From Escherichia phage TanjaMuster_Bas81, in the sequence record PQ850630.1: a stretch of DNA of 47,623 nt. The stretch is one strand, 5' to 3'. The notes beneath the pieces are model-generated. The model was not told the origin of the DNA. It made no database searches and saw only the letters and a list, made by a program, of their open reading frames with translations. Both the position numbers and the translations under genes were made by a program. This document shows, in pieces, positions 24,641 to 25,945 of the stretch. Position 1 is the stretch's first letter, and each line of letters begins with the position of its first letter.

Positions 24641-24670
24641 GAAAAAGCCCCGAAAGGGGCTTGTTTTATT
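24641..24670. terminator. bidirectional intrinsic terminator
   Basis: aagcccc/ggggctt stem with GAAA loop flanked by A5 and T-rich tract. Confidence 0.75.
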
Positions 24671-24875
24671 CTTGCGGCGGCTCTGGTAGTGTCATCCAGT
24701 GAGATGGTTTCCACGAAGCGCCTGGAATTAGCCACCCGTCATCAGCATTAGGATGCCCAGGGATATAAGTAGCCCACTTCATCCGCCAGTCGCCTCGATG
24801 ACCGAACTCTGTAGCTACAAGAACTCCTGTCATTTTTGGTGGCATCCGCTCGCTACACTTAATCCACTGGCTCAT
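24666..24875 (-). CDS. DUF551-like protein
   Basis: N-terminal WIKCSERMP and C-terminal HWMTLPEPP resemble DUF551 family as recalled. Confidence 0.5.
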   Translation of the reverse strand: MSQWIKCSERMPPKMTGVLVATEFGHRGDWRMKWATYIPGHPNADDGWLIPGASWKPSHWMTLPEPPQE

Positions 24876-25204
24876 AATTTATCCTCATTCATTTCCAGAA
24901 AGACAATCATGGCAGCGCGGAGTGGGTTTGTATCGAATGTTGTCTCTCCATCTTGACCATCTGCAAACCATATATCTCGATGGGTGCTTGGGATTACCGA
25001 TATAAAATTATTGGTAATAATCGGCCATGCATCAGCCGGGTTGTTGCATGGGTCAAACTTTCGCTTAATATTTTTGTCATCAAAAAAGAAGAATCCATCG
25101 GGACATATGTGAGCCAACCCACCATTGGGGCAAAGGTTACTACTAACAAAAAAGAAAACCTTTTGCGCTATTTCCATGTCACTCATGTCTTCATAATTTT
25201 TCAT
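24872..25204 (-). CDS. hypothetical protein (possibly NinX/DUF2591-like)
   Basis: 110-aa track ORF; C-terminal NPLRAAMIVFL segment; family assignment tentative. Confidence 0.35.
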   Translation of the reverse strand: MKNYEDMSDMEIAQKVFFFVSSNLCPNGGLAHICPDGFFFFDDKNIKRKFDPCNNPADAWPIITNNFISVIPSTHRDIWFADGQDGETTFDTNPLRAAMIVFLEMNEDKL

Positions 25205-25344
25205 ATCACCTTATCCTCATCAAAAATCACACCAATCACACGAAGCAAATCTTTCGCCATGCGTTCGGCTTCTTCATAGTCGTAACCTGCATCGACATAC
25301 AGATCAGTGTAGAAAATCAGGTCTGCTTTTGTTTGCTCGTTCAT
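25201..25344 (-). CDS. hypothetical acidic protein (47 aa)
   Basis: manual translation MNEQTKADLIFYTDLYVDAGYDYEEAERMAKDLLRVIGVIFDEDKVI; ATGA overlaps at both ends. Confidence 0.3.
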   Translation of the reverse strand: MNEQTKADLIFYTDLYVDAGYDYEEAERMAKDLLRVIGVIFDEDKVI

Positions 25345-25535
25345 TTCTTGTCGCCACTGTTAACTAATGCCCAAACAAGTGCTGCAACCCACCCAATAAA
25401 GCTCCATCCGACAAGAATATTCAATACACAGATTGCGGTCGTATTTGTGTGCTTTCTTTGCAATGCAACAAATGACGGGAGAAGATAAGCGAATATCACC
25501 AAACCAACAAAAACCAACAAAATAACAACGTCCAT
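25341..25535 (-). CDS. superinfection immunity (Imm-like) membrane protein
   Basis: YLLPSFVALQRKHTNTTAICVLNILVGWSFIGWVAALVWA matches recalled Imm_superinfect signature; GAGGT RBS before ATG 25535. Confidence 0.5.
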   Translation of the reverse strand: MDVVILLVFVGLVIFAYLLPSFVALQRKHTNTTAICVLNILVGWSFIGWVAALVWALVNSGDKK

Positions 25536-25567
25536 AGTTAACCTCAACTGTTAATAACTTGTTTATA

Positions 25568-25861
25568 TTACATGCCATTCTTTTCGCACAAAGCAACAGA
25601 TACATCACGCAATTGCTCTTTGGTCATATCCTTGCGTGCATAAACCATTTCTACGATAGCAAGGCCGATTATTTCTGCTGATTCGTTGTTTTTTGTGGAA
25701 CCCTTAACTACCACCTCGGCAAGATTCTTGCTGATACCGTTATCGCGAGCATCGGCAGTGTTCATGGCGATTTCTCCTATGTTTTTGCAAACCTCAGAGG
25801 TTGCTACAGCAGAAAAAGAAGAAACCAGCAAAGCAGATGCGATCAACATTTTAATTTTCAT
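25568..25861 (-). CDS. secreted/periplasmic hypothetical protein (signal peptide)
   Basis: N-terminal MKIKMLIASALLVSSFSAVA signal-peptide-like segment. Confidence 0.5.
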   Translation of the reverse strand: MKIKMLIASALLVSSFSAVATSEVCKNIGEIAMNTADARDNGISKNLAEVVVKGSTKNNESAEIIGLAIVEMVYARKDMTKEQLRDVSVALCEKNGM

Positions 25862-25934
25862 AACTCACCTCATTCATATCTCGTTTCGATGACTTGAATC
25901 TACATCACCGCCTGGCAGGTGTCAACACCACTGA

Positions 25935-25945
25935 GATGATATAAT
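25935..25945 (+). promoter_or_regulatory. extended -10 promoter (TGaTATAAT) for tail chaperone/tape-measure operon
   Basis: 25937-25945 tgatataat, 30 nt before ATG 25975; AATCTACATCA motif at 25897-25907. Confidence 0.5.

What the first reader, a model, noticed from the sequence alone, without database searches (positions are those of the whole stretch)
24641..25945. Opposite-strand accessory cassette between major tail and chaperone genes encoding a superinfection-immunity-like membrane protein and a secreted protein
Five minus-strand genes are bounded by a bidirectional terminator (24641-24670) and the chaperone promoter region: a signal-peptide protein (25568..25861), an Imm-like two-TM protein (25341..25535), a 47-aa acidic ORF, a NinX-like protein and a DUF551-like protein, chained by ATGA overlaps. 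The location inside the tail operon, the reversed orientation and the membrane/periplasmic products are typical of host-interaction or exclusion cargo rather than virion components.
Basis: partly seen in the sequence, partly recalled or inferred. Interest (0 to 1): 0.55.

Follow-up and report, generated by a model that had tools for sequence, protein, structure and literature searches.

The report
Imm-type exclusion gene cassette in tail operon
A small, swappable block of five accessory genes sits backwards inside the tail genes of a Skatevirus-type phage; one gene is a true relative of the phage T4 Imm protein that stops other phages from injecting DNA, which is already annotated in related phages and so is fairly ordinary.

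Summary
Five minus-strand genes lie at 24666-25861. A bidirectional terminator (24645-24662) closes them, and a conserved sigma-70-like promoter (TTGACA-17-TAGATT, 25925..25897) heads them, back-to-back with the promoter of the DUF6246/tape-measure genes.

Pfam confirms DUF551, NinX and Imm_superinfect, all above the curated cut-offs. The 64-aa protein is 36% identical to T4 Imm. It keeps the two residues (R27, W44) that correspond to the ones needed for T4 exclusion. The 97-aa protein is a secreted four-helix protein with a conserved cysteine pair, from an uncharacterised phage family. It is not Spackle-like and not a lipoprotein.

Across 36 close relatives the cassette is a mosaic:
- the 47-aa gene is present in every relative;
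- the Imm and secreted genes come and go independently, and every close relative keeps at least one of them;
- NinX is optional;
- DUF551 is highly divergent;
- more distant relatives have no cassette.

GC content is lower than in the flanks. This is a moron-type exclusion cassette, comparable in position to HK97 gp15, in a virulent phage. Relatives already carry the annotation "superinfection immunity protein". Function is inferred, not shown. One untested lead is that cassette content co-varies with the type of the swapped tape-measure module.

The parts
25897..25925 (-). Sigma-70-like promoter of the cassette: TTGACA (25925-25920), 17-nt spacer, TAGATT (25902-25897). Predicted start near 25890, giving a leader of about 29 nt.
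   Evidence: 2 matches in the window against 0.03 expected; both hexamers are conserved in 38 loci, including four where the spacer sequence differs and is 18 nt long.
25568..25861 (-). 97-aa secreted protein. Signal peptide MKIKMLIASALLVSSFSAVA, predicted to be cut before TSE. The mature 77-aa part is a four-helix protein with an invariant cysteine pair (C25, C92) and an R-D-x-G motif. Function unknown.
   Evidence: invariant C25, R39, C92; near-invariant D40, G42, Y74. AlphaFold2 pLDDT 91-98 over the mature part; phrog_2315; dN/dS 0.12. Strong GAGGTGA ribosome-binding site.
25341..25535 (-). 64-aa inner-membrane protein of the T4 Imm family, with two hydrophobic segments (about 1-26 and 32-60) and a basic loop QRKH.
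   Evidence: PF14373, 65.9 bits against a cut-off of 27.9; 36% identity to T4 Imm; hydropathy; R27 and W44 align with T4 R33 and W50; dN/dS 0.06.
25201..25344 (-). 47-aa acidic protein (pI 4.1). It is the only gene present in every relative's cassette. Function unknown.
   Evidence: phrog_17424, E 1.8e-36; present in all 38 loci, 91-100% identical among close relatives; dN/dS 0.05; found only in this phage group.
24872..25204 (-). 110-aa NinX-family protein (PF10765, formerly DUF2591). An optional module with very divergent alleles.
   Evidence: E 3.5e-11; phrog_444; present in 13 of 36 close loci, 38-72% identical; inserted exactly between two ATGA junctions.
24666..24875 (-). 69-aa DUF551 protein, the last gene of the cassette. 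Its ends are conserved and its middle is very divergent.
   Evidence: E 4e-18; 29-44% identity in most relatives..
24645..24662 (.). Bidirectional intrinsic terminator shared by the major tail gene (+) and the cassette (-).
   Evidence: Conserved in relatives. Annotated as two terminators in phage Skate.
25937..25945 (+). Extended -10 element TGATATAAT for the DUF6246 and tape-measure genes, back-to-back with the cassette promoter.
   Evidence: the pattern TGTCAA...TGATATAAT occurs twice against 0.01 expected; invariant in close relatives.
23920..24636 (+). Left flank: major tail protein.
   Evidence: phrog_853, E 4.5e-84.
25975..26682 (+). Right flank: DUF6246 protein in the tail-assembly-chaperone position, overlapping the start of the tape-measure gene.
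   Evidence: PF19759, E 6.5e-74; same gene order in relatives.
26682..29168 (+). Tape measure protein, 828 aa. This is the class of protein that T4 Imm binds, so it is the presumed target class for the Imm-like protein.
   Evidence: TMP_2, E 1.2e-8. T4 Imm binds T4 tape measure protein gp29; four unrelated N-terminal module types among relatives.

Best explanation
The region is a self-contained accessory operon of the 'moron' kind, inserted between the major tail gene and the chaperone-position and tape-measure genes of a virulent Skatevirus-type siphophage. Host RNA polymerase would start at a sigma-70-like promoter at 25925..25897, read leftwards through five genes and stop at the bidirectional terminator at 24645-24662. 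The first two products go to the cell envelope. The 64-aa protein is a member of the T4 Imm family. By analogy with T4, it would sit in the inner membrane of the infected cell and bind the tape measure protein of a later-arriving phage. The incoming phage then could not open its DNA channel, and its genome would not enter. The 97-aa protein is exported to the periplasm and probably acts on the envelope or on an incoming phage part, but its target is unknown. The last three products (47-aa acidic, NinX, DUF551) are presumed cytoplasmic proteins of unknown role. Shown here: gene structure, family membership, selection, modular gain and loss, and conserved promoter and terminator sequences. Inferred: timing of expression, exclusion activity and the tape-measure target.
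For: Family membership: PF14373 at 65.9 bits against a cut-off of 27.9; T4 Imm hits the same model; 36% identity to T4 Imm, E 5e-12; matching two-segment hydropathy. Mechanism in T4: Imm co-purifies with the tape measure protein gp29, and the R33A and W50A changes weaken exclusion (bioRxiv 10.64898/2026.03.06.709160). Both residues are kept here as R27 and W44. Independent unit: the promoter hexamers are conserved even where the spacer differs, the terminator is present, and GC is 0.39-0.43 against 0.47-0.53 in the flanks. Accessory nature: more distant relatives have the major tail gene directly next to DUF6246, and close relatives carry different gene combinations. Purifying selection on the genes. 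A precedent in the same place: the HK97 gp15 moron lies between the chaperone and tape-measure genes and is an inner-membrane exclusion protein (PMC3594210). Relatives carry the annotation 'superinfection immunity protein'.
Against: No experiment on this phage group was found. T4 Imm is reported to exclude only T-even phages, and the T4 and Skatevirus tape measure proteins were not compared here, so transfer of the mechanism is an assumption. Imm protein variants do not follow the tape-measure module type. Eight close relatives do without the Imm gene. The promoter is a consensus match only. The -10 hexamer is weak (4 of 6), and the overall count of promoter-like sites in the region is no higher than in shuffled sequence.
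Confidence: 0.6

Rival explanations
1. The two envelope proteins control lysis or protect the envelope (for example lysis timing, or resistance to lysis from without) rather than blocking DNA entry.
For: The Imm-like protein has the size and two-segment shape of many holins and antiholins. A distant relative of the 97-aa protein lies next to a lysozyme, DUF7940 and DUF2514 (spanin-type) lysis cluster in another phage contig. T4 spackle mutants change lysis behaviour, according to the T4 record's own note.
Against: Relatives have a complete, separate lysis cluster elsewhere: endolysin, holin and spanin in Bas79 at 7831-9271. The closest characterised relative of the 64-aa protein is T4 Imm, not a holin. 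Either gene can be absent in viable phages.
Confidence: 0.12
2. The cassette is mainly an early host-takeover or anti-defence unit. Its constant core is the 47-aa acidic protein, and the Imm-like and secreted genes are optional passengers.
For: The 47-aa gene is the only one present in all 38 loci and is the most conserved (dN/dS 0.05). NinX and DUF551 are typical of the early 'nin'-type regions of lambdoid phages (family names only).
Against: No family with a known function matches the 47-aa, NinX or DUF551 proteins in Pfam, PHROGs, NCBIfam or PADLOC. This reading does not conflict with an exclusion role for Imm; it concerns the other genes.
Confidence: 0.15
3. The 97-aa secreted protein is the counterpart of T4 Spackle. 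It would inhibit a cell-wall-cutting enzyme on the incoming tail, and together with Imm it would give a T4-like two-layer exclusion.
For: It has the same length as T4 Spackle (97 aa), a signal peptide, an all-helical mature part and a cysteine pair. It sits just upstream of the Imm-like gene. The tail module includes an NlpC/P60-domain protein at 29987-30574 that could be a target.
Confidence: 0.1

Closest known systems
Phage T4 Imm (immunity to superinfection; Pfam PF14373 Imm_superinfect)
   Same: Same Pfam family. 36% identity over the core. Two hydrophobic segments with a short basic loop. The residues matching T4 R33 and W50 are kept. Both are encoded by a virulent phage.
   Different: 64 aa against 83 aa, lacking the T4 C-terminal tail. 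The host phage is a siphovirus that uses an O-antigen tailspike, not a T-even myovirus. The gene lies in the tail module next to the tape-measure gene, whereas in T4 it lies among early replication genes. Activity is untested.
HK97 gp15 moron (YebO-like inner-membrane exclusion protein)
   Same: An independent unit with its own promoter and terminator and a GC content unlike its flanks. It sits in the tail operon next to the chaperone and tape-measure genes. It is a small inner-membrane protein thought to stop the incoming tail from forming a DNA channel.
   Different: Unrelated in sequence: the Pfam scan returned only Imm_superinfect and a sub-threshold DUF3302 match. HK97 is temperate and expresses gp15 from the prophage; this phage group is virulent. 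HK97 has one gene; here there are five on the opposite strand.
Phage T4 Spackle (gp61.3, PF25676)
   Same: Compared with the 97-aa protein: same length, signal peptide, helical fold and cysteine pair.
   Different: No sequence or fold match. No lysozyme-type tail spike is known in this phage.
Cor (T1, phi80) and Llp (T5) receptor-blocking lipoproteins
   Same: Small exported phage proteins that prevent re-infection.
   Different: The 97-aa protein has no lipobox: the predicted cleavage site is AVA|TS and the first cysteine is 5 residues into the mature chain. Skatevirus phages use O-antigen, not a porin, as receptor.

Membership tests
Imm_superinfect / T4 Imm family (PF14373) | Matches the family profile above the curated cut-off | tested here: met
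   65.9 bits against a cut-off of 27.9, E 2.9e-18, covering profile positions 2-42 of 42. T4 Imm itself scores 58.2 bits.
Imm_superinfect / T4 Imm family (PF14373) | Direct similarity to the characterised member, T4 Imm | tested here: met
   BLASTP: 36% identity over 53 ungapped residues, E 5e-12.
Imm_superinfect / T4 Imm family (PF14373) | Small protein with two membrane-spanning hydrophobic segments | tested here: met
   Kyte-Doolittle 15-residue windows of at least 1.6 at residues 1-26 and 32-60, matching T4 Imm at 1-34 and 39-65. No dedicated topology predictor was available.
Imm_superinfect / T4 Imm family (PF14373) | Residues needed for exclusion in T4 (R33, W50) are present | tested here: met
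   They align to R27 and W44. The T4 mutant data are from the bioRxiv preprint 10.64898/2026.03.06.709160.
Imm_superinfect / T4 Imm family (PF14373) | Blocks genome entry of a superinfecting phage and binds its tape measure protein | not testable with these tools
   Needs plating, DNA-entry and co-purification experiments.
Moron (independent accessory unit, as defined for HK97 and HK022) | Extra DNA that is absent from related genomes | tested here: met
   In loci such as L042 and L046-L048 the major tail gene ends about 70 nt before DUF6246. Close relatives have intervals of 677-1382 nt with differing gene content.
Moron (independent accessory unit, as defined for HK97 and HK022) | Own promoter and own terminator | tested here: met
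   The sequence evidence is met: TTGACA-17/18-TAGATT is conserved across 38 loci despite spacer changes, and there is a bidirectional terminator. Transcripts were not measured.
Moron (independent accessory unit, as defined for HK97 and HK022) | Base composition differs from the flanking genes | tested here: met
   GC is 0.39-0.43 across 24900-25950 against 0.47-0.53 in the flanking tail genes.
Moron (independent accessory unit, as defined for HK97 and HK022) | Expressed from a repressed prophage to benefit the lysogen | tested here: not met
   No integrase or repressor is annotated in the relative Bas79, and Skatevirus phages are described as lytic. Any benefit must arise during lytic infection, as for T4 Imm.
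T4 Spackle (PF25676), for the 97-aa protein | Sequence or fold similarity to Spackle | tested here: not met
Cor/Llp-type exclusion lipoproteins, for the 97-aa protein | Lipobox with a cysteine at the first position of the mature chain | tested here: not met
   Read from the sequence...SSFSAVA|TSEVC. There is no L-x-x-C motif at the cleavage site.
DUF551 (PF04448) and Phage_P22_NinX (PF10765) | Matches the family profile above the curated cut-off | tested here: met
   DUF551: 66.4 bits against 22. NinX: 43.9 bits against 22.6, covering only profile positions 43-113; PHROG 444 covers the full length.
HK97 gp15 / YebO family | Sequence similarity to gp15 or YebO | tested here: not met
   The Pfam scan of the 64-aa protein at E up to 1 returned only Imm_superinfect and DUF3302. 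The resemblance to gp15 is in position and presumed role only.

The most novel reading that the evidence does not exclude
The promoter-proximal slot of this cassette may hold interchangeable entry-blocking modules matched to the phage's own tape-measure type. The uncharacterised 97-aa periplasmic four-helix family (invariant C...R-D-x-G...Y...C) would then be a new kind of exclusion factor that replaces or supplements Imm. Every one of 36 close relatives keeps at least one of the two genes. Imm is present in 17 of 17 loci with tape-measure module type A against 9 of 17 with the other types. The 97-aa gene shows the reverse pattern, 6 of 17 against 16 of 17. The equally linked NinX gene shows no association. 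Close linkage and shared ancestry could explain all of this.
Probability: 0.15. Interest if true: 0.55.

Novelty: new member of a known kind. Interest (0 to 1): 0.27.

Why it matters
If the inference holds, Imm-type blocking of the tape-measure channel is not confined to T-even phages. It would also be used by small virulent siphophages of Salmonella, E. coli and Shigella that are being developed for biocontrol, and it would affect how such phages behave together in cocktails. The locus also offers a compact natural experiment. Relatives that are about 91-93% identical in DNA across this locus differ by having Imm, the secreted protein, or both, next to four different tape-measure modules. A handful of plating assays could show which module excludes which phage. 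On present evidence, however, it is an already-annotated homologue with no tested function.

Tried and rejected

2. Fold-based function for the 97-aa protein. The second AlphaFold2 model is confident. It matches only generic helical proteins in the PDB and uncharacterised exported or 'lipoprotein' phage proteins in BFVD. A profile search of PDB sequences found nothing. The afdb50 library was unavailable.

3. Profile search for distant relatives with names. The second homologue search mostly re-listed close relatives. Only one distant relative gave genomic context.

4. Experimental dispensability data. The Skatevirus seszw, which is locus L004, was subjected to genome reduction: 53 of 81 genes were removable (PMC9825161). 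The gene-level table is not held, so the fate of the cassette genes could not be read.

5. Defence-system and NCBIfam libraries. Only weak sub-threshold hits appeared: a 2TM-TIR membrane region at E 0.002, and signal-peptide-only matches.

6. Obligate Imm plus secreted-protein pair. Rejected, because each occurs without the other.

7. Imm allele tracking the tape-measure type. Not seen.

8. Overlapping ORF 25360-25605 as a gene. Rejected, dN/dS about 2.

9. Non-coding RNA in or near the cassette. Rfam found only the two tRNAs.

Full report
**What the window is.** The window is essentially a whole phage genome of 47.6 kb. The region around the finding matches Skatevirus-type siphophages of Salmonella, E. 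coli and Shigella at about 91-93% identity. Examples are Skate, KFS-SE2, Sf11, C1, Sa179lw and BASEL phages Bas77-79. These phages are described as lytic and use O-antigen-specific tailspikes. The fully annotated relative Bas79 has no integrase or repressor. It also has several strand-switched gene blocks inside its structural region.

**The observation.** In order of transcription they are:
- 25568-25861, 97 aa;
- 25341-25535, 64 aa;
- 25201-25344, 47 aa, pI 4.1;
- 24872-25204, 110 aa;
- 24666-24875, 69 aa.

The last three junctions are ATGA overlaps, and the first two genes are 32 nt apart. Genes 1, 2, 4 and 5 have recognisable GAGG-type ribosome-binding sites. The 47-aa gene has none and is probably translated by coupling.

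The terminator is a 7-bp GC-rich hairpin at 24645-24662 with T-runs on both strands. It is more stable than shuffled sequence on both strands, z about -2.5.

Pfam confirms DUF551 (E 4e-18), Phage_P22_NinX, formerly DUF2591 (E 3.5e-11), and Imm_superinfect (E 2.9e-18), each above its gathering score. PHROGs agrees and assigns the flanking genes as major tail protein and the DUF6246 family.

Pairwise dN/dS across relatives is 0.12, 0.06 and 0.05 for the 97-aa, Imm-like and 47-aa genes. An overlapping shadow ORF (25360-25605) gives about 2. The genes are therefore real and under purifying selection.

**Transcription signals.** On the minus strand, TTGACA-17 nt-TAGATT lies at 25925..25897. This places a start near 25890 and gives a 29-nt leader. 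On the plus strand, an extended -10 (TGATATAAT, 25937-25945) precedes the DUF6246 gene.

Across 38 loci both minus-strand hexamers are conserved. This includes four loci (L026, L036, L037, L038) where the spacer sequence is different and 18 nt long. That pattern is what a functional promoter predicts.

The same divergent promoter pair occurs once more, at 23840-23883 upstream of the major tail gene. All of this is sequence evidence only; no transcript data were found.

**The Imm-like protein.**
- It aligns to T4 Imm without gaps over 53 residues at 36% identity, E 5e-12.
- T4 Imm hits the same Pfam model.
- Both proteins have two hydrophobic segments separated by a short basic loop.
- A 2026 preprint reports that T4 Imm co-purifies with the T4 tape measure protein gp29. 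The authors propose that it blocks opening of the inner-membrane DNA channel.
- The same preprint reports that R33A and W50A weaken exclusion. These residues align with R27 and W44 here, and both are conserved.

Family membership is therefore well supported. The activity itself is inferred.

**The 97-aa protein.** It has a classic signal peptide with an A-V-A cleavage motif and no lipobox.

A profile search of 1.8 billion representative proteins found only 25 relatives. Those whose sequences were fetched and aligned are mostly about 100 aa long, mostly begin with a signal-peptide-like stretch, and share invariant C25, R39 and C92 and near-invariant D40, G42 and Y74. None is in Pfam.

With this alignment, AlphaFold2 gives a confident four-helix model, pLDDT 91-98 over the mature part. 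Searches gave the following:
- BFVD gave uncharacterised exported phage proteins, including 'Exported phage protein' of Vi II-E1.
- T4 Spackle, which is also 97 aa, shows no sequence similarity.
- One distant relative lies beside a lysis cluster in another phage contig.

The function remains unknown.

**Comparative anatomy.** Loci were fetched through the conserved DUF6246 gene. I mapped the window's proteins onto them and clustered all ORFs between the flanking genes.
- More distant relatives, about 40-50% identical in the tail proteins, have the major tail gene directly next to DUF6246. They have no cassette.
- In 36 close loci the order is fixed, but the content varies: [optional 91-aa gene] - [97-aa] - [Imm] - 47-aa - [NinX] - DUF551.
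- The 47-aa gene is always present, at 91-100% identity.
- Sixteen loci, including the window, have both envelope genes. Eight have only the 97-aa gene, twelve have only Imm, and none lacks both.
- NinX is present in 13 loci, with alleles 38-72% identical to the window's.
- DUF551 is nearly always present but is only 29-44% identical.
- Modules are exchanged exactly at the ATGA or ribosome-binding-site junctions.
- GC content falls to 0.39-0.43 inside the cassette, against 0.47-0.53 outside.

These are the textbook marks of a moron. The first moron described, HK97 gp15, sits in the equivalent place in the tail operon. It is an inner-membrane exclusion protein thought to act on the incoming tail. 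The main difference is that this phage group is virulent, so any benefit arises during lytic infection, as with T4 Imm.

**A lead, not a result.** The tape measure gene immediately downstream comes in four module types. Their N-terminal two-thirds are essentially unrelated (778-792, 816-828, 969-980 and 1096-1097 aa), while DUF6246 stays 97-100% identical in most close relatives and 92% in two.

| Gene | Present with TMP type A | Present with other types | Fisher p |
|---|---|---|---|
| Imm | 17 of 17 | 9 of 17 | 0.003 |
| 97-aa gene | 6 of 17 | 16 of 17 | 0.0008 |
| NinX | 8 of 17 | 5 of 17 | 0.48 |

On a tree of the neighbouring DUF6246 gene the states are scattered, with 6-14 parsimony steps, so several independent exchanges are involved. 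However, that tree is poorly resolved, the genes are about 1 kb apart, and no correction for shared ancestry was made. Imm protein variants do not follow the tape-measure type.

**Verdict.** The locus is a new member of known kinds: the T4 Imm family, and a tail-operon moron. It is already annotated as 'superinfection immunity protein' in relatives, and its function has not been tested. Interest is modest. The most interesting open point is whether the uncharacterised periplasmic family is a second exclusion factor matched to tape-measure type.

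Noticed in passing
window 22783-23883: A second copy of the divergent promoter pair lies upstream of the major tail gene: minus-strand TTGACA-17-TAGATT at 23868..23840 and plus-strand TGATATAAT ending at 23883. Its minus-strand arm points into about 850 nt with no convincing ORF. Then come tRNA-Ser (22891-22978) and tRNA-Arg (22809-22884) on the minus strand and a terminator at 22803..22783. Weak sub-threshold tmRNA-like Rfam hits lie at 23694-23852.
   Followed up: partly
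window 26682-29168; loci L004-L039: The tape measure gene is a mosaic. Among close relatives its N-terminal two-thirds comes in four essentially unrelated types (778-792, 816-828, 969-980 and 1096-1097 aa). The upstream DUF6246 gene and the tape-measure C-terminal third stay conserved. The different lengths suggest differences in tail length, or module swapping within one genus-level group.
   Followed up: partly
window 25201-25344: The 47-aa acidic gene is the only invariant member of the cassette and the most conserved one. It is still recognisable (52-56% identity) in L036 and L037, where everything else differs. It is found only in this phage group and has no family with a known function.
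   Followed up: partly
L026 4627-4902 and L038 4627-4902: Two relatives carry an extra 91-aa gene at the promoter end of the cassette. A promoter-like TTGACA-18-TAGATT lies upstream of it, and the original leader is retained downstream. This looks like a further inserted module.
   Followed up: no
window 25341-25535: The Imm-like membrane region gives a weak PADLOC match (E 0.002) to the membrane part of a candidate defence protein named 2TM-TIR. This hints that Imm-like two-helix anchors are reused in bacterial defence proteins.
   Followed up: no
window 29987-30574: A tail protein in the lambda gpK position carries an NlpC/P60 cell-wall peptidase domain (E 1.2e-8). It is a possible cell-wall-cutting activity of the tail tip.
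   Followed up: no
L058 5468-6291: A distant relative (28% identity) of the 97-aa secreted protein sits in an unrelated phage contig. It is transcribed divergently from a lysozyme / HNH / DUF7940 / DUF2514 lysis cluster.
   Followed up: no
window 25360-25605 and 24994-25125: Conserved-looking ORFs overlap the Imm and NinX genes in another frame on the same (minus) strand. They recur in relatives but are frame shadows; dN/dS is about 2 for the first.
   Followed up: yes
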